Positions 2,818-60,386 of a stretch of DNA of 64,000 bases are shown here, one piece after another. Each line of letters starts with the position of its first letter. Within the stretch, counting starts at the first letter, position 1. The stretch is from Escherichia coli (GTDB lineage: Bacteria > Pseudomonadota > Gammaproteobacteria > Enterobacterales > Enterobacteriaceae). Under the pieces are notes generated by a model. The model searched no databases. It was not told where the DNA came from and saw only the letters and a list, made by a program, of their open reading frames with translations. The stretch lies in assembly GCF_009931435.1 (NCBI RefSeq), contig NZ_CP043414.1. One strand, given 5' to 3'. The position numbers were made by a program, and so were the translations under genes.

Positions 2818-3078
2818 ATGGCTGCTAACGCGTTTGTTCGCGCCCGAATCGATGAAGATCTGAAGAATCAGGCGGCGGACGTACTGGCCGGGATGGGGCT
2901 GACCATCTCTGACCTGGTTCGCATAACCCTCACAAAAGTCGCGCGTGAAAAGGCATTGCCGTTTGATTTACGCGAGCCTAATCAATTAACCATTCAATCA
3001 ATTAAAAACAGCGAAGCTGGCGTTGATGTTCATAAGGCCAAAGACGCCGATGATTTATTTGATCAATTAGGAATTTAA
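2818..3078 (+). CDS. dinJ: DinJ antitoxin
   Basis: 86 aa; MAANAFVRARIDEDLKNQA... matches DinJ; directly followed by yafQ. Confidence 0.9.
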   Translation: MAANAFVRARIDEDLKNQAADVLAGMGLTISDLVRITLTKVAREKALPFDLREPNQLTIQSIKNSEAGVDVHKAKDADDLFDQLGI

Positions 3079-11546: not shown

Positions 11547-11951
11547 TCATTTCATTTTTTTAAAACATACGTTAATGCCATTCACACTTCCACATTCACC
11601 AAAAGCATCAAAATAAATTTCACATTTATTGTTGCCTTTCGAAATGATGCTAACCCCCCATCTTATATTGTTATATTTTTCTTTTCTGAAATACTTCATT
11701 TGCAATAAATCAATTATCTTACCCGCATAGAGATCGCTAAGTTCATTCACCACCACTTTATATCTGTATATTTCATTAAGACCTTCCTTGCTAAGCGGAA
11801 CTAACGTGGTAACATACGATGGAAGATTAACTACCTCTATCGTTTTCACGCTATCTATTCCACACAATTCATTCACTCGCCCCATCCCCAATACCGAACC
11901 AGAAAATAGAGACAATAAAACCATCAAATATTTCATCATAAAAAACCTCAC
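11547..11951 (-). CDS. Putative Rhs immunity protein (RhsI) for the rhs-A C-terminal toxin; has a signal peptide
   Basis: 134 aa, AT-rich, starts at the rhs-A stop codon; N-terminus MKYLMVLLSLFSGSVLG looks like a Sec signal peptide; position is that of an immunity gene. Confidence 0.55.
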   Translation of the reverse strand: MRFFMMKYLMVLLSLFSGSVLGMGRVNELCGIDSVKTIEVVNLPSYVTTLVPLSKEGLNEIYRYKVVVNELSDLYAGKIIDLLQMKYFRKEKYNNIRWGVSIISKGNNKCEIYFDAFGECGSVNGINVCFKKMK

Positions 11952-14900
11952 TATTCTGGCGTACCCGTTATTGTCATCGTCTGCAACGGTCCATCCACCC
12001 GATAAAAAGGCAGTCCACTATGAGCTCCTCTGACACACTCATCTAAAGTTTTCGCCGCACGCGATTCAATTATTGTAATAACCCTTGCCTCTTCTTTATT
12101 ATCATATTTCTTATCCGTCCGACTTAAAAGAGCCATGAAATTTTCTTTATCAAGAAGGTAATACTGTGCATGTGCAAACTCATGCCCCAAACCTAATGCA
12201 GGCGATTGTGATTTCGAGTTTAATTCAGTTGAACAAAATAAAGACGCTCTACTATTCCAATATATCGTCATATTATTCGAATTAAATCTACCATTGGTTC
12301 CTTCAATATACTCTATATTTATAGTTTCTTCAGAGCTTGATAAAAAATCTATAGCATCTTTCATTCGTGAATCTTTTTCTAAATACTTAACAGCCTGATT
12401 AAAATCACTTGGATCACCATTAACCTCGAATTTTAAACCCAAAGAATCTATAAACCGAACAGGGTTTAATGGATATTTATACAGATTCCATTCACCTCTT
12501 AGCCCGATTGGATCCTGCGTGATATACCTCCCCTGCAACGGGTCATAGTACCGGTGACGGTTGTAGTACAGCCCCGACTCCTCATCATACTGCTGCCCTG
12601 GCAGACGGTACGGCTGTTGCAGGTGCTCCGGGTTTTCCTCTCCCAGCAGGTTTCCCCACTCGTCATACTCCCCGCGCCACGCCGTTTCCCCTTCCGGGCT
12701 GATAAGCGCCTGCGGCAGCCCACGGTGGTCACAGTGGTAAAGATGAAGTTTCCTCTCCGGGATGTATTCTTCCTCCATCTGGTTGTTCATCTGTTCCGCC
12801 GTCAGCCCGCACTGCGCAAGCCATGCTTCACTCTCCGCACTCACCGCACCCGCGCGCAGTTCCCGCTCCAGCCTCCCCAGCATCACCGACAGCTCCGCCG
12901 GGAGCGTCACACCCGTGTCCTCCTGCAACACCTCCGCCAGGCTACGGTGCCGCGCCTTCGCCTGTTCGCCATTCTCTGTTTCGATTCTCAGGAGCGGCGT
13001 GAAGCTTCCCGGCTGATAAATCGTCTGGATACGTGTGGTGCCGGTCTGTACCGTCGTCAGCCTGTCACCGTCCCACCCGTACCATGTCTCCTCCGGTTTA
13101 CGCGACAGCGACATCCATCCCGTCAGGTCACGCTCCCGCCGCCACACCCGTTTTCCCGTCCTGCGGCCCAGCGGGTCGTAAAGGTAGCGGCTCTCCACCT
13201 GCGGCTCGCCGTGCTGTATCCGCGTGTAGAACACCAGACGGTGCTGGCTGTCGTAATGGTAGTGGTGGGTGCGCTCGTCGTGCATCCGTATCACCCCTTC
13301 CGGGATACGGTCCGTCTTCTCCGCCAGCCTGCCGTATTCATCGTGGCGGTAGACATAGTGCGCATCTTCCGCGATGCGGTTATCCGGCCACGCCGTGAAG
13401 GTGCTGTCCGGGTGCAGTTCCGGGTCCGGCAGCCGGTTTCCTGCCGGGTCCGTCGCATACGGGATATCAATGTCCAGGTTCGCTGCCGTGGTGTGGACGC
13501 CCGTCAGCCTTCCCGTGTCGCTGTAACGGTACTCCCGGCTCTCCTGCGGGCCGCTGATACGCACCAGTTGCCCGTTATCATTCCACGTATACTCACGGTC
13601 AAGCTGCGGAAGGTTCAGGTGCCTGCTCCGGAGCTGGCCTGTGAGGGTGTATGTGCTGGTCAGTTCATATGCGGCATTACTGCCTGCCATGCTGCCGAAG
13701 CTGCGCACCGTCTCACGGTGCAGCCTGTCCCGCGTGTACTCGACCAGCGGCGTTCCGCCCAGCTTCATCCCCGCAAGATAACCGCTGCCATACGTCAGCC
13801 ACTCCACCGGCGGCAGACCGTCCGGCTCCTGACGGGTCGCCAGCCCCTGTTCGCTGTACGCGTGCCCCGTCTCATGCTCCCACAGCATCTCCCCCGTCTC
13901 CGGGTTCTCCACCGTCTGCCGTTCGCCCGTCAGGCGGCCCTTATCGTCATAGCCGTAGTGGACCGCCACACGGTGGCCTTCACTGGTATGGCTGAGGGTG
14001 GTTAACCACCCGTGCTCATCATACTGCCACTGCTCTGCCGCTTCGCCGTTCACCGTCCGGTGCGTGATGCGGTCCGACGCATCGTAGTGCCAGAGGGTGA
14101 TAAGTCCCTCGTCTTCACTGCGGACAAGCTGCCCTGTGGCGCTGTACCGGTAACGCTGTGTCCGTCCGTCAAAGCCGCGCTGCTCCGTCAGGCGGTCCAC
14201 CGGGTCATACAGGAACGTGGACTGGCTGCCGTTCTCATTAGTCAGCGTGGTGATGCGCCCGGCGGCGTCATACCCCATGCTGCGCGTCAGACCGCCCTGC
14301 GTGGTGCTGATAGCTTTACCCCACGCATCATACTGTGTCTCACTGCGGCTGCCGTTCGGGGCAATGATAGCGGTGAGGTCGCCTGCGGCGCTGTACTCAT
14401 AACGGGTTTCACGCCCCTGCACATCCTTCTGACTGACCAGTTGACCACGCGGGTTATAACTGCTGTAAGTGCTGATGCCTTCTTCCCGGTGAACCGCCGT
14501 CCTCTGCCCGTACCGGTCGTACTCATACCGTGTCGTGTACCCCGAGCAGTCCGTGAAGGCCAGCAGTTGACCGTAGCGGCTCCATGCCATCTGTTTTGTA
14601 CTGCCCGTCGCATCCTGTATCCCTGTCGGCAGCTCACTCGCCGGGTCATCATAGCTGTACCGCGTCGTCTCACCGCTGCGCGAGGTCTCCGCCGCCAGCC
14701 TTCCCTTCTCATCATACTCCCGGCTGCTGCGAAGCCCGTCCGGGTACGTCACTGACGTCACCTGCCGCTGGCTGTTGTAGCCATACCGCACCGTCCTGCC
14801 GTCCGGCCCCGTCACCGCCGTCACCGCGCCCGACGCCATATGCAGGCTGTACTCCGTCCGCCGCCCCGCCGCATCCGTCTGCGCCTTCAGCCTCCCCGCC

Positions 14901-16207
14901 GCATCATACTCGCTGCGGGTGATGCTCCCGTCCGCATGCTCCTTCTTCACCACCCGCTTCAGGCCACCCTCGCCTTCCGTGTACAGCACCTCCCGCCTGT
15001 TCAGGCTGTCCGTGATGGTCACACGGTCCTGCCCGTACTCAAAGCGGTAGGCCAGCCCCTCCGGGTTGACCTGCTCCGTCACCCGACCGGTATCATCATA
15101 CCGGTAGCGGCTCTCCGGCCTCCCCGCATAATGGTGCGCCACCATCCGCCCGGCGTGCTCCGCATCATAAGTAAACCCGCGCACCTGCGTCCCGCTGCGG
15201 TCATACACCGCCAGCAACTCACCGCTGGCCGTGTACGTGTAGCGCGCCAGCGGCGCAGTCGGCTGTTCATCCGGGTATGCCGGGTCGTGTGTCAGCCACA
15301 CCGCCTCCAGCCGGATACCGTTATCGGCACCGTATTCTGTACCGGCGGGCAGCGTGTCGGGGAAAACCTGAGAAGAGGAAACAGAACGGGGACCGGCAGG
15401 GGAAGATAAAGACGTGGCGCGCTGTTTACGGCAGGCTTCCGCCCGCTGCGCCTGCGTGCTCAGCAACAGGTGAAAACGACGGCCCGCACCGTCCGTCCCC
15501 CCCGTCACCGCGCCCGCCACGTCACCCTCCGCTGCCCGGTGAAAGGCCAGCGTCCGACCAAAGCCATCCACCACGCCCGTCAGCACCCGGTATGCGGGCG
15601 GTTCCGGCGGCAGCACCTCGTCCGCCCCCGGCACCCGCTCCGGCCAGCTGAGTATCCACCACGGCCCCTGAAGGCTGTTTGTCGCCAGGTACACATGCGG
15701 ACTCAGGCGAACATCTTCCGGCAGCACCTGCCAGAGCGCGCTTAGCGGCTGCGAACTGTGCTGCTCCGCCCCCCCGCCCCGCGCCAGCCAGAACGACTCG
15801 CTGCGGCTGTAGCTTATCTCGCCGGGAAACAGCGGCTCAAAGTGAATGCTCCTGCCGCCGTTGTCGTTGAGTATCAGTTCCCGCTCATGAACCTGTAAGC
15901 GGATATCGAAGGGCGCTTTCCAGCCGGGGCCGAACACGCCCACCGGCGCGGGCGTCCTGGTCCGGTAACTGCTGTAAGCGCGGGAAAGAATAAACGGCAG
16001 CGGGCCGGGCAGTGCCAGGTCCGTCTCGCCCGGCAGCACCTTCGCACCCAGCACCGGGTTCACCGGGTTAGCATAGGTAATCCCTCCCGGACACACCGAG
16101 CAGGCCACTCCCGTCGGCGCACCTATCAGCACCCCTGCTGAACCCTGCACAATATCCAGTCCCTTGCGGGTCATGTCGCCCTGCCGCGCCGCCGGTTTTC
16201 CGCTCAT
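11951..16207 (-). CDS. Rhs-family polymorphic toxin (distal copy) with PAAR-like N-terminus, YD-repeat shell and a C-terminal domain carrying an HExxH motif
   Basis: 1418 aa; N-terminal [16 protein letters not shown]...VACSVCPGG, many YD repeats, DPIGL demarcation motif, then a unique roughly 160 aa tail containing [10 protein letters not shown]. Confidence 0.9.
12502..16207 (-). repeat. Rhs core repeat, copy A (near-identical to 18628..22342; apparently perfect over about 12502..14060)
   Basis: Identical antisense ORFs at a fixed 6126 bp offset (12554..14005 and 18680..20131, etc.) and direct line-by-line comparison. Confidence 0.85.
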
Positions 16208-17627: not shown

Positions 17628-18074
17628 TCAATACTTAGTGCAGCGTGTCTTAAGGAAATTAGAAGCCACAACATCAATCTTTTCTTTTAAGACTAAATCA
17701 TCCACATAATCACAAGACAAATAGAAGTCATTACCATCGGCCATTATAAATATCCTCATAGGTAAAGATTTATCATTATCAACATGAGCATTCGTAATAA
17801 TCCAATAATAAGGAAATCTAACATTTTTTGTAGGAATACCCAATAAATCATAAGCTTTATTATTATATTCTATCGCTCCCTTAACAAACGTTGGTTTGAC
17901 CTCCTTACCAATAATGCGATGCGACGTATATTCTTCCTTCTCAGCAAACGATTGCATTAATGCCCATATAGGTTTATTTGCCAGCTCACCGTGATGAAAA
18001 ATCCGATAAAAATACACTCCTAAAAAAAATATTAAGCCTAAGCAAACCAATACCATGAGGCAGTTCTTACTCAT
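17628..18074 (-). CDS. Putative Rhs immunity protein (RhsI) for the rhs-B C-terminal toxin; N-terminal membrane anchor
   Basis: 148 aa, AT-rich, overlaps the rhs-B stop by 4 nt; N-terminal hydrophobic helix [18 protein letters not shown]. Confidence 0.55.
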
Positions 18075-21000
18075 TGATTAAAATCCGTAAAATTAGAAGG
18101 AACAGGGCCATTCTCAGGTGAAAACAATGGAGATGTATTTGATACTCGTGATGCTATCATTTCTACAGTAGCAGGAAGATACATTGGCATTCCATTATCA
18201 CCACCTAGCGGATCAGTTGAAGTTAAAATTTCATTTATTGAATCTACTGAGACTCCCGCATGCAACATTGCCTCAATAACCATTGTTGCACAATTGTGCG
18301 TAAAATAGTTATAGTCACTTCTATCTACTTTATATTTTTCATCAATGTACTTAATCATTGCTTTCTCTTGTTCTGGCGTGGTTTTAATTGTATATATCCT
18401 CGTGCTTCTACGTTGTGCTTGTTCAGTTAAATAAGCTATGACACTCCCTCCACGTGGGGTAGCGGTTCCATAGCTATATACCCCTTTTCCAGTAAATGCC
18501 ATCGCAGAATGCCCTAATGGATTACCACTCGTGGGTCCCCCAGCAAAAATAAGGGTATCCAAACCAAGTGGATCTATATTTATAGTTGGATTCCACGGAT
18601 ATTTATAAAGATTCCATCCCCCCGCAAGCCCGATTGGATCCTGCGTGATATACCTCCCCTGCAACGGGTCATAGTACCGGTGACGGTTGTAGTACAGCCC
18701 CGACTCCTCATCATACTGCTGCCCTGGCAGACGGTACGGCTGTTGCAGGTGCTCCGGGTTTTCCTCTCCCAGCAGGTTTCCCCACTCGTCATACTCCCCG
18801 CGCCACGCCGTTTCCCCTTCCGGGCTGATAAGCGCCTGCGGCAGCCCACGGTGGTCACAGTGGTAAAGATGAAGTTTCCTCTCCGGGATGTATTCTTCCT
18901 CCATCTGGTTGTTCATCTGTTCCGCCGTCAGCCCGCACTGCGCAAGCCATGCTTCACTCTCCGCACTCACCGCACCCGCGCGCAGTTCCCGCTCCAGCCT
19001 CCCCAGCATCACCGACAGCTCCGCCGGGAGCGTCACACCCGTGTCCTCCTGCAACACCTCCGCCAGGCTACGGTGCCGCGCCTTCGCCTGTTCGCCATTC
19101 TCTGTTTCGATTCTCAGGAGCGGCGTGAAGCTTCCCGGCTGATAAATCGTCTGGATACGTGTGGTGCCGGTCTGTACCGTCGTCAGCCTGTCACCGTCCC
19201 ACCCGTACCATGTCTCCTCCGGTTTACGCGACAGCGACATCCATCCCGTCAGGTCACGCTCCCGCCGCCACACCCGTTTTCCCGTCCTGCGGCCCAGCGG
19301 GTCGTAAAGGTAGCGGCTCTCCACCTGCGGCTCGCCGTGCTGTATCCGCGTGTAGAACACCAGACGGTGCTGGCTGTCGTAATGGTAGTGGTGGGTGCGC
19401 TCGTCGTGCATCCGTATCACCCCTTCCGGGATACGGTCCGTCTTCTCCGCCAGCCTGCCGTATTCATCGTGGCGGTAGACATAGTGCGCATCTTCCGCGA
19501 TGCGGTTATCCGGCCACGCCGTGAAGGTGCTGTCCGGGTGCAGTTCCGGGTCCGGCAGCCGGTTTCCTGCCGGGTCCGTCGCATACGGGATATCAATGTC
19601 CAGGTTCGCTGCCGTGGTGTGGACGCCCGTCAGCCTTCCCGTGTCGCTGTAACGGTACTCCCGGCTCTCCTGCGGGCCGCTGATACGCACCAGTTGCCCG
19701 TTATCATTCCACGTATACTCACGGTCAAGCTGCGGAAGGTTCAGGTGCCTGCTCCGGAGCTGGCCTGTGAGGGTGTATGTGCTGGTCAGTTCATATGCGG
19801 CATTACTGCCTGCCATGCTGCCGAAGCTGCGCACCGTCTCACGGTGCAGCCTGTCCCGCGTGTACTCGACCAGCGGCGTTCCGCCCAGCTTCATCCCCGC
19901 AAGATAACCGCTGCCATACGTCAGCCACTCCACCGGCGGCAGACCGTCCGGCTCCTGACGGGTCGCCAGCCCCTGTTCGCTGTACGCGTGCCCCGTCTCA
20001 TGCTCCCACAGCATCTCCCCCGTCTCCGGGTTCTCCACCGTCTGCCGTTCGCCCGTCAGGCGGCCCTTATCGTCATAGCCGTAGTGGACCGCCACACGGT
20101 GGCCTTCACTGGTATGGCTGAGGGTGGTTAACCACCCGTGCTCATCATACTGCCACTGCTCTGCCGCTTCGCCGTTCACCGTCCGGTGCGTGATGCGGTC
20201 CGACGTATCGTAGTGCCAGAGGGTGATAAGCCCCTCGTCTTCACTGCGGACAAGCTGCCCTGCGGCGCTGTACCGGTAACGCTGTGTCCTGCCATCAAAG
20301 CCGCGCTGCTCCGTCAGGCGGTCCAGCACATCATAGGTAAACTCACTCCGGCTGCCGTTCTCGTTGGTCAGCACGGTGATGCGCCCGGCGGCGTCATACC
20401 CCATGCTGCGCGTCAGCCCGCCCTGCGTGGTGCTGACGGCCTTTCCCCACGCATCATACTGTGTCTCACTGCGGCTGCCGTCCGGGGCAATGATAGCGGT
20501 GAGGTCGCCTGCGGCGCTGTACTCATAACGGGTTTCACGCCCCTGCACATCCTTCTGACTGACCAGTTGACCACGCGGGTTATAACTGCTGTAAGTGCTG
20601 ATGCCTTCTTCCCGGTGAACCGCCGTCCTCTGCCCGTACCGGTCGTACTCATACCGTGTCGTGTACCCCGAGCAGTCCGTGAAGGCCAGCAGTTGACCGT
20701 AGCGGCTCCATGCCATCTGTTTTGTACTGCCCGTCGCATCCTGTATCCCTGTCGGCAGCTCACTCGCCGGGTCATCATAGCTGTACCGCGTCGTCTCACC
20801 GCTGCGTGAGGTCTCCGCCGCCAGCCTTCCCTTCTCGTCATACTCCCGGCTGCTGCGCAGCCCGTCCGGGTACGTCACTGACGTCACCTGCCGCTGGCTG
20901 TTGTAGCCATACCGCACCGTCCTGCCGTCCGGCCCCGTCACCGCCGTCACCGCGCCCGACGCCATATGTATCCGGTACTCCGTCCGCCGTCCCGCCGCAT

Positions 21001-22342
21001 CCGTCTGCGCCTTCAGCCTCCCCGCCTCATCATACCCGCTGCGGGTGATGCTCCCGTCCGCATGCTCCTTCTTCACCACACGCTTCAGGCCACCCTCGCC
21101 CTCCGTGTACAGCACCTCCCGCCTGTTCAGGCTGTCCGTGATGGTCACACGGTCCTGCCCGTACTCAAAGCGGTAGTCCAGTCCCTCCGGGTTGACCTGC
21201 TCCGTCACCCGCCCGGTATCATCATACCGGTAGCGGCTCTCCGGCCTCCCCGCATAATGGTGCGCCACCATCCGCCCGGCGTGCTCCGCATCATAAGTAA
21301 ACCCGCGCACCTGCGTCCCGCTGCGGTCATACACCGCCAGCAACTCACCGCTGGCCGTGTACGTGTAGCGCGCCAGCGGCGCAGTCGGCTGTTCATCCGG
21401 GTATGCCGGGTCGTGTGTCAGCCACACCGCCTCCAGACGGATACCGTTATCGGCACCGTATTCTGTACCGGCGGGCAGCGTGTCGGGGAAAACCTGAGAA
21501 GAGGAAACAGAACGGGGACCGGCAGGGGAAGATAAAGACGTGGCGCGCTGTTTACGGAAGGCTTCCGCCCGCTGCGCCTGCGTGCTCAGCAACAGGTGAA
21601 AACGACGGCCCGCACCGTCCGTCACCCCCGTCACCGCGCCCGCCACGTCACCCTCTGCCACCCGGTGGAAAGTCATCGTCCGACCAAAGCCATCCACCAC
21701 GCCCGTCAGTACCCGGTATGCGGGTGGCTCCGGCGGCAGCACCTCGTCCACTTCCGGCACCCGCTCCGGCCAGCCGAGCACCAGCCACTGCCCGGTTGTG
21801 CTGACAGCCATCATATAGGTGTGTGGACTCAGGCGGACCGCTTCCGGCAGCGCCCGCCAGAACCGCGCAAGCGGGTGTCCTTTATGCTGTTTCAGCACCC
21901 CGCCCCGCGCCAGCCAGAACGACTCGCTGCGGCTGTAGCTTATCTCGCCGGGAAACAGGGGTTCAAAGTGGATGCTCCGGCCACCGCTGTCGTTAAGTAT
22001 CAGTTCACGCTCACAAATCTGTAAGCGGATGTCGGAGGGGGCTTTCCAGCCGGGGCCGAATATCCCCACCGGGGCTGGCGTCTTCGTCCGGTAACTGCTG
22101 TAGGCGCGGAAAAGGATGAACGGCAACGGGCCGGATAGTGCCAGGTCGGTTTCAGCAGGCAGTACCTTCGCTCCCAGCAGCGGGTTTACCGGATTGCCAT
22201 ATTTCGGCGTGGCTTCCCCTGTGGGACACACCGAGCAGGCAACCCCCGTCGGCGCACCTATCAGCACCCCTGCTGAACCCTGCACAATATCCAGTCCCTT
22301 GCGGGTCATGTCACCCTGCCGCGCCGCCGGTTTTCCGCCCAT
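18071..22342 (-). CDS. Rhs-family polymorphic toxin (vgrG-proximal copy) with PAAR-like N-terminus and a C-terminal domain with a His...Cys pattern (possible permuted papain-like hydrolase)
   Basis: 1423 aa; same architecture as the other rhs; after DPIGL the tail contains GHSAMAF...YSYG...[12 protein letters not shown]. Confidence 0.9.
18628..22342 (-). repeat. Rhs core repeat, copy B (near-identical to 12502..16207)
   Basis: See copy A; N-terminal 250 codons are more diverged, the central and 3' core is almost identical. Confidence 0.85.
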
Positions 22343-25287: not shown

Positions 25288-25584
25288 TTGTAAACTCCTT
25301 GTTAACGTGGTTAATTACTACTTACAATGACCTGCCGTTAATCCCAGACAGGCAGATGCAGCTCACTTCACGGAACCGCATCATTTTTCAGTATTTTTTA
25401 CATACAAACCGAGCTAGAATTTACGGTTGTCGTAAAAACTATTTTTAAAATCATTAAATCTCTTATTCAGCAATAACTTAATAATATATATCTGGATAAC
25501 TATACCCAACTGTTCAAAGTCCGTATTGCCTCCATAAAATGGCCAAAGCTGAATCATGAATAAATATTGTATTTATCCTTTCTG

Positions 25585-25603
25585 AATTATCATTTTGATA
25601 ATT
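25585..25603. promoter_or_regulatory. Candidate Fur box: perfect palindrome in the hcp-tssB divergent intergenic region
   Basis: aattatca ttt tgataatt is a perfect inverted repeat built from GATAAT-like hexamers in a very AT-rich 700 bp intergenic region. Confidence 0.4.
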
Positions 25604-25982
25604 TTTGAGATATTCCTTAAAAATACCCACTTACTCAATCACAAAACAAATATATAAACAAGCAATCATTAGATTAGCTTATGTTTAATGAAATTATTAT
25701 ATACTTCAATAAGATACATAAAAACTCTATATTTAAATTATTGCCATAATACACCTGACGCGAATTGCACAGGTTCACACAATCTATTTAACGCTTGCAG
25801 AATACCCCTCTTTACGATCGATAAAAAGTCCTTTTCTTATTTATTTTGAAGCGTAAAATGCGGGGTGATGAAGGAGTGGTGATTTTATTTTCACCGCCAT
25901 CAAGGCGGCATTTCCGATATTTTTTGCGGTACAAATATGCTGTGTTCATGGCCTGTACGAGATAACATGACGGATCACTTTT

Positions 25983-26483
25983 ATGAGCAAAAAATTTGAA
26001 GGCAGCGTCGCGCCTCGCGAGCGTATTAATATATCGTATGTCCCAAAAACAGATGGCCAGACGGCTGAAGTGGAACTTCCGCTTAACATGCTCGTTGTCG
26101 GCGATACCGGAAATACGCAGGAAACATCCTCACTGGATGAACGTCAGGCAGTTTCCGTTAACAAGCACAATTTCGGTGCAGTGATGGCTGAAGCAGCCAT
26201 TGGCCTCAATTTTACCGTCCCCGCCACGCTGAAGGGAAGCACAACGGACGATGAACTGAATGTGGCGCTGAATATCAAGTCACTGGATGATTTTTCACCA
26301 GATAGCGTGGCCCGGCAGGTTCCGGAAGTGAATAAATTGCTGGAATTACGTGAAGCACTGACTGCACTGAAGGGGCCGATGGGTAACCTTCCGGCATTCC
26401 GTACCCAGCTCCAGGCATTGCTGGAAAATGAAGAGTCCCGCGAGCAGTTGCTCAAAGAAATCGGCCAGGTGAGCAATAAATAA
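25983..26483 (+). CDS. tssB: T6SS contractile sheath small subunit TssB (VipA)
   Basis: 166 aa; typical TssB sequence; first gene of the plus-strand operon. Confidence 0.9.
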   Translation: MSKKFEGSVAPRERINISYVPKTDGQTAEVELPLNMLVVGDTGNTQETSSLDERQAVSVNKHNFGAVMAEAAIGLNFTVPATLKGSTTDDELNVALNIKSLDDFSPDSVARQVPEVNKLLELREALTALKGPMGNLPAFRTQLQALLENEESREQLLKEIGQVSNK

Positions 26484-26517
26484 CCACCACTATTTCATTA
26501 AACAGGGTTATCCAGGC

Positions 26518-26742
26518 ATGACGGCACACAAAAATATCTCCGGGACATACCACCTCTCTGTTGCAGACATTCTGCAGGTGGTTTACCAGGTATGTTTCAG
26601 CCCGTCCGTTGAAATCAACCAGGATGGTGTGGCTGCGCTGATTACAACACTGGATCGCCGTATCAGTGATCTATTGGATGAGATTATCCATTTTTGTGAG
26701 TTTCAGCAGAGCGCGTCGCACTGGCAGCGCGTACTTCACTGA
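26518..26742 (+). pseudogene. TssC-like N-terminal fragment (74 codons) between tssB and tssC
   Basis: Translation ...NQDGVAALITTLDRRISDLLDEIIHFCEFQQSASHWQRV parallels TssC residues ...NKLAVDSMIADIDERISRQMDVIIHAPAFQQVESFWRSL; fills an unusual 310 nt tssB-tssC gap. Confidence 0.45.
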
Positions 26743-26792
26743 CGGCGAAAAGCCGGTTTCAGAAACACAGCTAAAACAGAAGGATTTTCAGT

Positions 26793-28268
26793 ATGTCTTT
26801 ACAGGAAGAGGAACTCGTTTCCAGTCATGCCGGGCAGCCTGAGCAGGCATCGTCGCTGCTTGATCAAATCATGGCACAGACCCGTATTCAGCCCGGTTCG
26901 GAAGGTTATGACGTTGCCCGCCAGGGTGTGACAGCCTTTATTGCCAGCATCCTGCAATCCACTGCATCTGCCGAACCGGTCAATAAACTGGCCGTGGACA
27001 GCATGATTGCAGATATTGATGAACGCATCAGCCGCCAGATGGATGTCATCATCCATGCGCCTGCCTTTCAGCAGGTCGAGTCGTTCTGGCGCTCACTGAA
27101 AACCATGGTGGATCGCGTTGATTTCCGTGAAAACATCAAGGTCAACGTGCTTCATGTCACCAAGCAGGAACTTCTGGAAGACTTTGAGTTTGCGCCAGAA
27201 ATTATTCAGTCCGGATTTTATAAGCACGTTTATTCGTCCGGTTTCGGACAGTTTGGCGGTGAACCCATCGCTGCCGTGCTGGGCGCTTATGAGTTCAAAA
27301 ATACCGCGCCTGACATGAAACTGCTGCAATACGTCAGTGCCGTGGGCGCAATGGCGCACGCACCGTTCCTGTCCTCCGTTTCCCCGGAGTTTATGGGGCT
27401 GAACTCGTGGACCGAACTGCCTAATATCAAAGATCTTTATGCCATCTTTGAAGGTCCGGCCTACACCAAATGGCGCGCCCTGCGTGACTCGGAAGATTCG
27501 CGCTATTTAGGGCTTACGGCACCCCGCTTCCTGCTTCGCCAGCCCTATTCACCAACAGATAACCCTGTTAAGAACTTTAACTATTACGAAGATGTCAGCC
27601 AGAACCACGAAGATTATCTGTGGGGTAATACGGCCTGGATGCTGGCATGCAATATCGCAGACAGTTTTGCCAAATACCGCTGGTGTCCAAACATTATCGG
27701 TCCGCAAAGCGGCGGCGCAGTGAAAGATCTGCCGGTGCATCTGTTCGAAACGATGGGGCAGATTCAGGCCAAAATCCCAACCGAGGTGCTGGTCACCGAT
27801 CGCCGCGAATTTGAACTGGCTGAAGAGGGTTTTATCACCCTTACCATGCGTAAAGACTCTGATAATGCAGCCTTTTTCTCTGCAAACTCGGTACAAAAAC
27901 CGAAGCACTTTCCGGGAAAAGATGCAGAAACCAACTATAAGCTGGGTACGCAGCTTCCTTATCTCTTCATCATCAATCGGTTAGCGCACTACATCAAGGT
28001 GTTGCAGCGTGAACAACTGGGGTCATGGAAAGAAAGGAGCGACTTAGAAAGAGAGCTTAATACCTGGATCCGTCAGTATGTTGCCGACCAGGAAAACCCG
28101 CCTGCAGACGTGCGCAGCCGCAAACCTCTGCGCGCTGCCAAAGTTGAGGTTATGGATGTAGAAGGCGAACCCGGCTGGTACCAGGTTGCGCTAAGCGTGA
28201 GACCTCATTTTAAATTTATGGGGGCAAATTTTGAGCTTTCCCTGGTTGGCCGGTTAGACAGGGAGTAA
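26793..28268 (+). CDS. tssC: T6SS contractile sheath large subunit TssC (VipB)
   Basis: 491 aa; typical TssC sequence. Confidence 0.95.
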   Translation: MSLQEEELVSSHAGQPEQASSLLDQIMAQTRIQPGSEGYDVARQGVTAFIASILQSTASAEPVNKLAVDSMIADIDERISRQMDVIIHAPAFQQVESFWRSLKTMVDRVDFRENIKVNVLHVTKQELLEDFEFAPEIIQSGFYKHVYSSGFGQFGGEPIAAVLGAYEFKNTAPDMKLLQYVSAVGAMAHAPFLSSVSPEFMGLNSWTELPNIKDLYAIFEGPAYTKWRALRDSEDSRYLGLTAPRFLLRQPYSPTDNPVKNFNYYEDVSQNHEDYLWGNTAWMLACNIADSFAKYRWCPNIIGPQSGGAVKDLPVHLFETMGQIQAKIPTEVLVTDRREFELAEEGFITLTMRKDSDNAAFFSANSVQKPKHFPGKDAETNYKLGTQLPYLFIINRLAHYIKVLQREQLGSWKERSDLERELNTWIRQYVADQENPPADVRSRKPLRAAKVEVMDVEGEPGWYQVALSVRPHFKFMGANFELSLVGRLDRE

Positions 28269-48541: not shown

Positions 48542-48618
48542 TGGCGGAACGGACGGGACTCGAACCCGCGACCCCCTGCGTGACAGGCAGGTATTCTAAC
48601 CGACTGAACTACCGCTCC
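48542..48618 (-). tRNA. aspV: tRNA-Asp (GUC)
   Basis: Reverse complement matches the 77 nt E. coli tRNA-Asp sequence. Confidence 0.97.
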
Positions 48619-56762: not shown

Positions 56763-56839
56763 TGGCGGAACGGACGGGACTCGAACCCGCGACCCCCTGC
56801 GTGACAGGCAGGTATTCTAACCGACTGAACTACCGCTCC
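56763..56839 (-). tRNA. aspU: tRNA-Asp (GUC), distal gene of the rRNA operon
   Basis: Same 77 nt sequence as the aspV copy. Confidence 0.97.
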
Positions 56840-60191: not shown

Positions 60192-60267
60192 TGGTGGAGC
60201 TATGCGGGATCGAACCGCAGACCTCCTGCGTGCAAAGCAGGCGCTCTCCCAGCTGAGCTATAGCCCC
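60192..60267 (-). tRNA. alaV: tRNA-Ala (UGC), spacer tRNA
   Basis: Reverse complement matches E. coli tRNA-Ala (GGGGCUAUAGCUCAGCUGGGAGAGCGCCUGCUUUGCACGCAGG...). Confidence 0.97.
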
Positions 60268-60309
60268 ATAACATGTAGTTAAAACCTCTTCAAATTTGCG
60301 GTGCAAATT

Positions 60310-60386
<77 letters not shown>

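What the first reader, a model, noticed from the sequence alone, without database searches (positions are those of the whole stretch)
26484..26792. TssC-like N-terminal fragment in an unusual tssB-tssC gap
tssB and tssC are normally adjacent, but here they are separated by 310 nt containing a 74-codon ORF whose product parallels TssC residues about 60-100 (IxDRISxxxDxIIHxxxFQQxxSxWxxV). This looks like the remnant of a second sheath gene left by duplication or recombination. It could affect tssB-tssC translational coupling or encode a small sheath-interacting peptide.
Basis: seen in the sequence. Interest (0 to 1): 0.5.

Follow-up and report, generated by a model that had tools for sequence, protein, structure and literature searches.

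The report
Relic tssC fragment between tssB and tssC
The 74-codon reading frame between the two sheath genes of this E. coli type VI secretion cluster is an old, cut-down copy of the start of the neighbouring tssC gene; it is shared by a few related enterobacteria, is often broken, and is probably dispensable, so it is a genuine but fairly ordinary evolutionary leftover.

Summary
tssB (25983-26483) and tssC (26793-28268) are separated by 309 nt that hold a 74-codon ORF (26518-26742). Its residues 15-72 align to TssC residues 50-102 (BLASTP E=2e-8; profile-profile E=1e-10; the only PDB, Pfam and NCBIfam hits are TssC/VipB).

The window is the aspV-adjacent E. coli T6SS island of the EHEC EDL933 type. 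The gap occurs only in one T6SS lineage, where TssC is at least 87% identical: Escherichia, Citrobacter, Salmonella, Atlantibacter and Yokenella. In 52 more distant clusters the gap is 2-141 nt (median 27). The family profile matches the clusters' own TssC best, which fits an ancient partial duplication of tssC.

The evolutionary signal is mixed:
- **Between the three sublineages**, amino-acid similarity is kept more than a block-shuffle null allows (P<0.002), so the peptide was once weakly selected.
- **Within sublineages**, dN/dS is about 1 and there is no third-position excess.
- **The ORF is independently broken** in at least five lineages, while tssB and tssC stay intact (dN/dS 0.03-0.14).
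- **Only the last ~36-50 nt before tssC are strongly conserved.** I read this stretch as the tssC translation-initiation leader.

Verdict: a decaying tssC-derived relic plus a leader. It is not described in the papers I could search, and interest is modest.

The parts
25983..26483 (+). tssB (sheath small subunit), 166 aa
   Evidence: TIGR03358 E=1.7e-50. RefSeq annotates it as tssB.
26484..26517 (+). Head of the gap: 34 nt between the tssB stop and the small-ORF ATG, with a weak, distant AGGG Shine-Dalgarno-like motif
   Evidence: Sequence. Within the Citrobacter/Salmonella sublineage it diverges at the local neutral rate: 0.173, against 0.16-0.17 at nearby 4-fold sites. Its resemblance to the tssC ribosome-binding region is not statistically significant.
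26518..26742 (+). Small ORF, 74 codons plus TGA: a truncated tssC-derived relic. RefSeq calls it 'hypothetical protein' WP_000123970.1; it is probably Z0263 of EDL933 (inferred from gene numbering).
   Evidence: It is present in 2258 of 5426 complete E. coli genomes, almost the same number as carry the tssB-to-tssC stretch (2276).
26560..26733 (+). Segment of the ORF (residues 15-72) that is homologous to TssC residues 50-102. This covers the end of the flexible TssC N-terminus and the first ordered TssC segment. The ClpV-binding helix is not included.
   Evidence: BLASTP, hhalign, PDB alignments, alignment A1. PMC5048182 places the ClpV-binding helix in the N-terminal ~15-35 residues and the first ordered residue at 61.
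26675..26690 (+). Local hairpin UGGAUG-AGAU-UAUCCA inside the ORF, of uncertain significance
   Evidence: It is predicted in every Escherichia and Citrobacter/Salmonella-type sequence, with one compensatory A-U to G-C change in Atlantibacter. It is degenerate in the third sublineage, and folding energy of the region is not unusual (z-scores -0.06 to -1.4).
26743..26792 (+). Tail of the gap, read as the tssC translation-initiation leader. It includes AGAAGGA (26778-26784) 8 nt before the ATG. This is the most conserved part of the gap.
   Evidence: Pairwise difference is 0.035, against 0.16-0.29 at 4-fold sites. The last ~36 nt are conserved in all three sublineages and resemble the short tssB-tssC spacer of outgroup clusters. 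PMC13141884 notes an ANGGA motif 8 nt upstream of tssC and cites CsrA repression of tssC but not tssB.
26793..28268 (+). tssC (sheath large subunit), 491 aa: the parent of the fragment
   Evidence: TIGR03355 E=1.4e-211. dN/dS is 0.03-0.14 in the same comparisons where the small ORF gives 0.9-1.5.

Best explanation
The small ORF is a vestigial, truncated paralogue of the adjacent tssC. It was made once, by a partial duplication of the 5' part of tssC, in the common ancestor of one enterobacterial T6SS lineage (Escherichia, Citrobacter, Salmonella, Atlantibacter, Yokenella and an unnamed third sublineage).

It keeps only the equivalent of TssC residues ~50-102 and lacks the ClpV-binding helix and every sheath domain. 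For a long period it was kept as a translatable ORF under weak amino-acid constraint. Today the peptide evolves about neutrally and has been knocked out repeatedly without loss of tssB or tssC, so it is not needed for the machine.

What the region does now is cis-acting. It is a ~300-nt intercistronic spacer, and its last ~36-50 nt form the conserved ribosome-binding leader of tssC. As a result, tssC initiates on its own signal rather than by close coupling to tssB.

Shown: the homology, the restricted distribution, the disruptions, the rate gradient, and the deep-branch coding signature. Inferred: tandem duplication of the cluster's own tssC, present-day dispensability of the peptide, and the leader role of the tail.
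For: Homology to TssC 50-102.

Distribution. The long gap occurs only where TssC is at least 87% identical to the window's. In 52 other clusters the gap is 2-141 nt.

Origin. The family HMM scores the carriers' own TssC highest. A full HMMER scan of 1.84 billion representatives finds no closer TssC, with best TssC-like scores of 35-43 bits. The fragment is only 46-47% identical in DNA to its own tssC and shares no long identical runs, so the event is ancient and there has been no recent gene conversion.

Independent disruptions:
- C. youngae: a stop at codon 21.
- Yokenella: a frameshift plus a stop.
- E. albertii type strain: ATG lost plus indels.
- Two metagenome loci: an 8-nt deletion plus a 1-nt insertion.
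- One Salmonella: a stop at codon 58.
- Third sublineage: the stop is moved or lost.
- Among the loci chosen without regard to the ORF (five genome loci and three distinct metagenome alleles), five are broken and three intact.

Recent neutrality:
- Within Escherichia, dN/dS is 0.9-1.5, against 0.03-0.14 for tssB and tssC. Fisher P=1e-8 and 5e-5.
- Variable sites by codon position are 35/36/32.
- Three nonsense events were seen, against about 5 expected under neutrality.

Rate gradient in the Citrobacter/Salmonella sublineage: local 4-fold sites 0.16-0.17; head 0.173; first 120 nt of the ORF 0.175; last 93 nt 0.076; tail 0.035.

The last ~36 nt before tssC are shared by all three sublineages and resemble the whole short spacer of outgroups.
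Against: Comparisons between the three sublineages show a coding-type pattern in the ORF's frame only:
- pN/pS is 0.48, against 0.92 and 1.0 in the other two frames.
- BLOSUM similarity exceeds a block-preserving shuffle, with P<0.002 in most pairs.
- Third-position changes are in excess, for example 23/20/43.
- Several conserved residues of LIxxLDxRIxxLxDEIIH use different codons.

So the peptide was under selection for much of its history, and weak selection today cannot be excluded. Short-term dN/dS is inflated in general, and the counts are small (15-37 differences).

The ORF, its ATG and a purine-rich motif upstream are kept in most lineages, and the ORF is annotated under every E. coli match listed.

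The duplication junctions could not be demonstrated.

The lower diversity in the last 93 nt of the ORF is not seen in the third sublineage. It may partly reflect local recombination rather than a cis element.
Confidence: 0.55

Rival explanations
1. The ORF is a bona fide, weakly selected accessory micro-protein derived from the TssC N-terminus. In this reading it is a two-helix mimic of TssC ~50-102 without the ClpV handle. It is translated from its own start and modulates sheath assembly or turnover, for example by binding TssB or a TssC partner surface. It would be non-essential and therefore lost in some lineages.
For: - Protein-level constraint on all three deep inter-sublineage comparisons.
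- The parsimony split gives 15 synonymous to 21 non-synonymous changes on the Escherichia stem.
- The ORF and its ATG are kept in most lineages across saturated synonymous divergence of the flanking genes.
- AlphaFold2 predicts helices at 15-26 and 35-73 with mean pLDDT 76.
- The N-terminal part of TssC is the TssB-binding part according to PMC3840085.
Against: - At least five independent knock-outs with intact tssB and tssC.
- dN/dS is about 1 and there is no codon-position bias within each sublineage.
- The N-terminal 40 codons evolve at the local neutral rate.
- The C-terminus is not fixed: the stop is moved or lost in the third sublineage.
- The Shine-Dalgarno-like motif lies 11 nt from the ATG, which is weak spacing.
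- No expression data or literature mention were found.
Confidence: 0.27
2. Translation of the ORF, not its product, is what matters. Ribosomes reading the 74 codons would keep the ~300-nt spacer covered. That would prevent Rho-dependent polarity or mRNA decay between tssB and tssC and deliver ribosomes close to the tssC start.
For: - The frame stays open across deep divergence although many residues change.
- dN/dS near 1 with an open frame is what this model predicts.
- PMC13141884 reports that the tssB operon is one polycistronic unit reaching ClpV.
Against: - The frame is broken early in several lineages that keep tssC intact.
- The simulated chance of staying stop-free over the deep branch is about 0.1, so an open frame alone is weak evidence.
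- The deep-branch signal is amino-acid-specific, which this model does not predict.
Confidence: 0.1
3. The fragment is a scar of recombination with a foreign T6SS cluster, not a duplication of the cluster's own tssC.
For: Score differences between the carriers' own TssC (35-38 bits) and some distant TssC (Helicobacter 33-34 bits; a partial TssC-like protein at 43 bits that is in fact a tssB-fragment fusion) are small. The junctions are unreadable.
Against: The best-scoring full TssC proteins are those of the carrier clusters. No TssC clade in 1.84 billion representatives stands out. The orientation and the position immediately 5' of tssC are those expected of a tandem event.
Confidence: 0.06
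4. The resemblance is a chance ORF in an ordinary intergenic region.
For: None beyond the short length of the match.
Against: Pairwise E=2e-8 and profile-profile E=1e-10. Every database hit is TssC at the same residues.
Confidence: 0.01

Closest known systems
TssC / VipB, T6SS contractile sheath large subunit (NCBIfam TIGR03355; Pfam PF05943 + PF18945)
   Same: Residues 15-72 of the ORF are homologous to TssC residues 50-102, which span the start of the PF05943 domain and the first ordered segment of the sheath subunit. The ORF sits in the sheath operon next to tssB.
   Different: The ORF is 74 aa instead of ~490. It scores 19 bits against a family cut-off of 271.5. It lacks the ClpV-binding N-terminal helix and all sheath domains, so it cannot be a sheath subunit.
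Gene remnants (pseudogene fragments) left by partial tandem duplication in bacterial operons
   Same: It is a truncated copy directly upstream of its parent gene and in the same orientation. It is lineage-restricted, shows near-neutral recent evolution, and has been disrupted repeatedly and independently.
   Different: It has persisted as an open frame through very deep divergence, with a coding-type substitution pattern on the deep branches. That is unusual for a dead fragment. The duplication junctions are no longer detectable.
Short upstream or leader ORFs and long 5' leaders that control translation of a downstream cistron (for example CsrA-bound ANGGA leaders)
   Same: A short ORF ends 50 nt before tssC. 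A highly conserved AGAAGGA-containing leader follows it. The literature reports CsrA repression of tssC but not tssB in EHEC (PMC13141884, citing Wang et al. 2017).
   Different: No attenuator or terminator, no Rfam family, no unusual folding energy and no convincing covariation were found. CsrA binding here has not been tested.

Membership tests
TssC/VipB sheath large subunit (TIGR03355, PF05943/PF18945) | Significant sequence similarity to the family | tested here: met
   BLASTP E=2e-8; hhalign E=1.1e-10; TIGR03355 E=5e-4; PF05943 E=3e-3, with 10 of 13 members at E<=0.1. The match covers only family positions ~43-100.
TssC/VipB sheath large subunit (TIGR03355, PF05943/PF18945) | Full-length architecture (~490 aa, both VipB domains) and a score above the curated cut-off | tested here: not met
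   74 aa; 19.1 bits against a cut-off of 271.5; only PF05943 positions 2-33 of 301 are covered.
TssC/VipB sheath large subunit (TIGR03355, PF05943/PF18945) | N-terminal ClpV-binding helix (LLDEIMAQTR-type, residues ~15-35) | tested here: not met
   Alignment A1 shows no counterpart of TssC residues 5-38 in any fragment. The helix position is taken from PMC5048182.
TssC/VipB sheath large subunit (TIGR03355, PF05943/PF18945) | Co-polymerises with TssB into a contractile sheath | not testable with these tools
   Needs biochemistry or imaging.
Relic of a partial tandem duplication | Truncated paralogue adjacent to its parent in the same orientation, absent from outgroups | tested here: met
   The ORF ends 50 nt upstream of tssC on the + strand. 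The gap is 290-316 nt only in the carrier clade, against a median of 27 nt in 52 other clusters. The carriers' own TssC is the best match.
Relic of a partial tandem duplication | Recognisable duplication junctions (a second copy of the RBS/start, or of the tssB 3' end) | tested here: inconclusive
   The Citrobacter/Salmonella-type ORFs start with MSL/MGL like TssC's MSLQ, and a purine-rich motif lies upstream. However, local alignment against shuffles is not significant: P=0.04-0.9 for the start region and P>0.08 for the tail against the tssB 3' end.
Relic of a partial tandem duplication | Loss of protein-level constraint, with independent inactivating mutations | tested here: inconclusive
   Met within sublineages: dN/dS 0.9-1.5, codon positions 35/36/32, and at least five independent disruptions. 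Not met on the deep branches, where substitutions are coding-like.
Conserved functional small protein | Intact ORF in all carriers, and purifying selection on terminal branches | tested here: not met
   Broken in C. youngae, Yokenella, the E. albertii type strain, two metagenome loci and one Salmonella. No terminal-branch constraint was detected.
Conserved functional small protein | Evidence of translation | not testable with these tools
   No expression data are available. No mention was found in the searchable literature.
CsrA-type regulated leader of tssC | A(N)GGA motif overlapping the Shine-Dalgarno, in a conserved 5' leader | tested here: met
   AGAAGGA lies at 26778-26784, 8 nt from the ATG. 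It is invariant in all sublineages. Tail divergence is 0.035, against 0.16-0.29 at 4-fold sites.
CsrA-type regulated leader of tssC | CsrA binding and an effect on tssC translation | not testable with these tools
   Known only second-hand, from PMC13141884 citing Wang et al. 2017. The primary paper is not held.

The most novel reading that the evidence does not exclude
The ORF encodes a real micro-protein born from the TssC N-terminus: a two-helix mimic of TssC ~50-102 that lacks the ClpV handle. It would tune sheath assembly or the TssB:TssC balance in this enterobacterial T6SS lineage, possibly together with a CsrA-responsive tssC leader, and it would be optional enough to be lost repeatedly. 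That would make it an example of a structural-gene fragment recruited as a regulator of its own parent machine.
Probability: 0.15. Interest if true: 0.55.

Novelty: new member of a known kind. Interest (0 to 1): 0.3.

Why it matters
This T6SS island is carried by about 40% of complete E. coli genomes, including EHEC O157:H7, and is hard to activate in the laboratory. Three practical points follow.
- The 'hypothetical protein' between tssB and tssC is a tssC-derived relic, not a new core component. This helps annotation and mutant design: deletions or tags placed here should spare the conserved ~50-nt tssC leader.
- tssC is not closely coupled to tssB and has its own conserved leader. This is relevant to reports that CsrA represses tssC but not tssB, and to the dispute over whether tssB and tssC are co-transcribed.
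- For evolution, it is a tidy case of a gene fragment that stayed open and weakly selected for a long time before decaying.

None of this changes the current understanding of how the T6SS works.

Tried and rejected
- **Rfam scan of 25300-27000:** nothing relevant.
- **Sigma-70 promoter and intrinsic terminator scan:** no site inside the gap. By eye I found no conserved -35/-10 or sigma-54 motif either.
- **RNA structure:** the alignment fold gave a covariation term of only -1.4 kcal/mol. Folding z-scores were -0.06 to -1.4. The one local hairpin is not kept in the third sublineage.
- **3' duplication junction:** the tail shows no similarity to the tssB 3' end.
- **5' junction:** the resemblance of the ORF's start region to the tssC ribosome-binding region is not significant.
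- **Gene conversion from tssC:** rejected. DNA identity is 46-47% with no long identical runs.
- **Structure:** the AlphaFold2 model is a helical hairpin, and Foldseek against the PDB gave only non-specific helical matches, E>1.
- **Literature:** no paper mentions the ORF or WP_000123970. The two primary papers on the tssB/tssC operon structure and on CsrA are not held.
- **A scripting error:** an early frame offset in one script was corrected. Segment boundaries are off by one base, which does not affect the rates.

Full report
**What is there.**
The window carries the chromosomal E. coli T6SS island next to yafV/ivy on one side and tRNA-Asp on the other. Its layout is Rhs, VgrG and Hcp on the minus strand, then tssB, a small ORF, tssC, tssE, tssF, tssG, tagH, tssJ, tssK, tssL, tssH, vasI, tssA and tssM on the plus strand. 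O157:H7 genomes match the gap at 100% identity, so this is the EDL933-type island.

tssB ends at 26483 and tssC starts at 26793, which leaves a 309-nt gap. The gap holds one ORF, 26518-26742, of 74 codons. RefSeq annotates it as 'hypothetical protein' WP_000123970.1. By gene numbering (TssE is Z0261 and TssB is Z0264) it is probably Z0263. That identification is an inference.

**Is the similarity real?**
Yes.
- BLASTP of the ORF against the adjacent TssC aligns residues 15-72 with TssC 50-102 at 34% identity, E=2e-8.
- The best NCBIfam family is TssC (TIGR03355, E=5e-4).
- The only PDB sequence hits are TssC/VipB chains at the corresponding residues.
- Pfam VipB matches weakly but consistently across the family.
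- A profile of 13 family members aligns to a profile of TssC N-termini with 97% probability, E=1.1e-10, over 44 columns.

The part of TssC that is copied runs from the end of the flexible N-terminus into the first ordered segment. The ClpV-binding helix (about residues 15-35; first ordered residue 61 according to PMC5048182) has no counterpart in the ORF.

**Distribution.**
A scan of one genome per species with TssC returned 73 loci.
- The long gap with a fragment homologue occurs only where TssC is at least 87% identical to the window's: E. coli, E. albertii, Citrobacter youngae, Atlantibacter subterranea and Yokenella regensburgei.
- In 52 clusters with TssC below 85% identity the tssB-tssC gap is 2-141 nt, median 27.
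- Protein and profile searches added Citrobacter portucalensis, Salmonella enterica, E. marmotae and unnamed samples.
- A full HMMER scan added a third sublineage, L090 and L091.
- In E. coli, 2258 of 5426 complete genomes carry the gap, close to the 2276 that match the tssB-to-tssC stretch.

There are thus three sublineages:
- Escherichia type, 74 codons.
- Citrobacter/Salmonella/Atlantibacter/Yokenella type, 70 codons.
- A third type, 66 to 105 codons.

All three have the same overall layout, so the event happened once, before they split.

**Origin.**
An HMM of the fragment family scores the TssC of the carrier clusters highest (35-38 bits). Rahnella/Buttiauxella types follow (30-32 bits), then Yersinia/Serratia types (about 26 bits). 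Among 1.84 billion representative proteins no TssC stands out above this level. A duplication of the cluster's own tssC 5' region is therefore the simplest origin.

The fragment is only 46-47% identical in DNA to its own tssC and shares no long identical stretch with it. The event is therefore old, and there has been no recent gene conversion.

The Citrobacter/Salmonella-type ORFs begin with MSL/MGL, as TssC begins with MSLQ, and a purine-rich motif precedes the ATG. This suggests that the duplicated unit included the tssC start and that codons ~5-38 were later deleted. The resemblance is not statistically significant, however. The 3' junction is also unreadable. The junction model stays a suggestion.

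**Is the peptide under selection?**
The answer differs between recent and deep evolution.

Recent evolution looks neutral:
- Within Escherichia the ORF has dN/dS 0.9-1.5, while tssB and tssC in the same genome pairs have 0.03-0.14. Fisher P is 1e-8 and 5e-5, and the ORF's non-synonymous to synonymous ratio is indistinguishable from the neutral site ratio.
- In the Citrobacter/Salmonella sublineage, variable sites fall 35/36/32 on codon positions 1, 2 and 3.
- About 4% of random substitutions would create a stop. At least 125 substitution steps predict about 5 nonsense events, and 3 are seen even in a sample biased towards intact ORFs.

Independent disruptions:
- C. youngae has a stop at codon 21.
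- Yokenella has a frameshift and a stop.
- The E. albertii type strain has lost the ATG and carries several indels.
- One Salmonella has a stop at codon 58.
- Two metagenome loci, found through the conserved tail and so chosen independently of the ORF, share an 8-nt deletion plus a 1-nt insertion.
- In the third sublineage the stop is eight codons early in one locus and missing in the other.
- Many E. coli assemblies carry frameshifted variants.
- In all these loci tssB and tssC remain full length.

Deep evolution shows a coding signature:
- Between the three sublineages the picture reverses. pN/pS is 0.48 in the ORF frame, against 0.92 and 1.0 in the other two frames.
- Amino-acid similarity exceeds a shuffle that preserves the local density of differences, with P<0.002 in most pairs.
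- Third positions carry an excess of changes, for example 23/20/43.
- A three-branch parsimony split puts the clearest synonymous excess on the Escherichia stem (15 synonymous, 21 non-synonymous). The other two stems give 7:18 and 7:20. These are small numbers at saturating divergence.

My conclusion is that the peptide was weakly selected for much of its history. No constraint is detectable now, and it is dispensable.

**What is conserved now.**
Rates in the Citrobacter/Salmonella sublineage (66 pairs):

| Region | Mean pairwise difference |
|---|---|
| 4-fold sites far from the gap | ~0.29 |
| 4-fold sites, last 60 tssB codons | 0.16 |
| 4-fold sites, first 40 tssC codons | 0.17 |
| Head of the gap | 0.173 |
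| First 120 nt of the ORF | 0.175 |
| Last 93 nt of the ORF | 0.076 |
| 47-nt tail | 0.035 |

- The first two thirds of the gap therefore drift at the local neutral rate.
- In the frameshifted metagenome loci the 5' part is at neutral divergence, but the 3' part and the tail are still conserved.
- Across all three sublineages only the last ~36 nt before the tssC ATG are shared. This stretch includes AGAAGGA 8 nt from the start, and it resembles the entire short spacer of outgroup clusters.
- I read this as the tssC translation-initiation leader.
- PMC13141884 notes an ANGGA motif 8 nt upstream of tssC. It cites CsrA repression of tssC and hcp3 but not tssB. It also cites an earlier claim that tssB and tssC are separate transcription units, while its own data favour one operon reaching ClpV. 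I could not read the two primary papers.
- I found no promoter, terminator, Rfam family, unusual folding energy or convincing covariation in the gap.

**Mechanism I commit to (probability about 0.55).**
The ORF is a relic of a partial tssC duplication. Its product is no longer needed, and the DNA now serves as a long spacer ending in the conserved tssC leader. tssC is therefore translated from its own signal rather than by tight coupling to tssB.

Main rivals:
- A live but optional TssC-mimic micro-protein (about 0.27).
- Selection for translation of the spacer itself (about 0.10).
- A foreign recombination scar and a chance ORF are both unlikely.

**Comparison with known things and novelty.**
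The ORF is homologous to TssC, but it fails the family's defining features of length, domains, score cut-off and ClpV helix, so it is not a TssC. It behaves like a partial-duplication gene remnant, with the unusual feature of a long period of weak coding constraint.

I found no description of it in the searchable literature. It is a new member of a known kind, and interest is modest (0.3).

Noticed in passing
window 26675-26690: A local hairpin (UGGAUG-AGAU-UAUCCA) lies inside the small ORF. In Atlantibacter (L004) a double change turns an A-U pair into G-C and alters two amino acids while keeping the pair. The hairpin is degenerate in the third sublineage, so its meaning is unclear.
   Followed up: partly
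window 26743-26755: A small CGGC-GAAAA-GCCG hairpin lies right after the small ORF's stop. One G-C pair is replaced by A-U in the Citrobacter/Salmonella sublineage. This is a single event, so the evidence is weak.
   Followed up: partly
L015 (Yersinia pestis) about 2930-3000: A ~20-nt tandem repeat (TAATAGCTCTTCATCAAAAG, about 2.5 copies) sits at the tssB stop / tssC junction. It makes the gap 67 nt instead of ~27, and it shows that this junction has duplicated independently elsewhere.
   Followed up: no
P0033 (7 contigs); P0056; L085 1767-2653: Three deletion alleles turned up in related clusters. P0033 fuses small-ORF residues 1-26 to the TssC C-terminus, so most of tssC is lost. P0056 fuses the middle of TssB to the fragment's second half. 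In L085 tssC is cut at 234 aa and followed by a YafT-like gene. Some lineages are therefore dismantling this T6SS.
   Followed up: no
window 11951-16207 (-) and 18071-22342 (-): There are two large Rhs-type ORFs (1418 and 1423 aa) downstream of vgrG, each with a long antisense ORF of 483 aa. The closest reference genome examined (L001) has only one Rhs core gene here.
   Followed up: no
window 48542-48618 (-), 56763-56839 (-), 60192-60386 (-): A tRNA-Asp flanks the T6SS island. A second tRNA-Asp, together with tRNA-Ala and tRNA-Ile, marks a ribosomal RNA operon at the end of the window.
   Followed up: no
window 25288-25982: A ~700-nt A+T-rich divergent region lies between hcp and tssB, with several promoter-like sites at chance frequency. 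The literature describes it as the H-NS-bound bidirectional promoter region of this island (PMC13141884).
   Followed up: partly
sub2 loci, tssB last 60 codons and tssC first 40 codons: Four-fold-site divergence next to the gap (0.16-0.17) is clearly lower than further into tssB and tssC (0.29). This suggests either a locally younger genealogy through recombination or selection on synonymous sites around the junction.
   Followed up: partly
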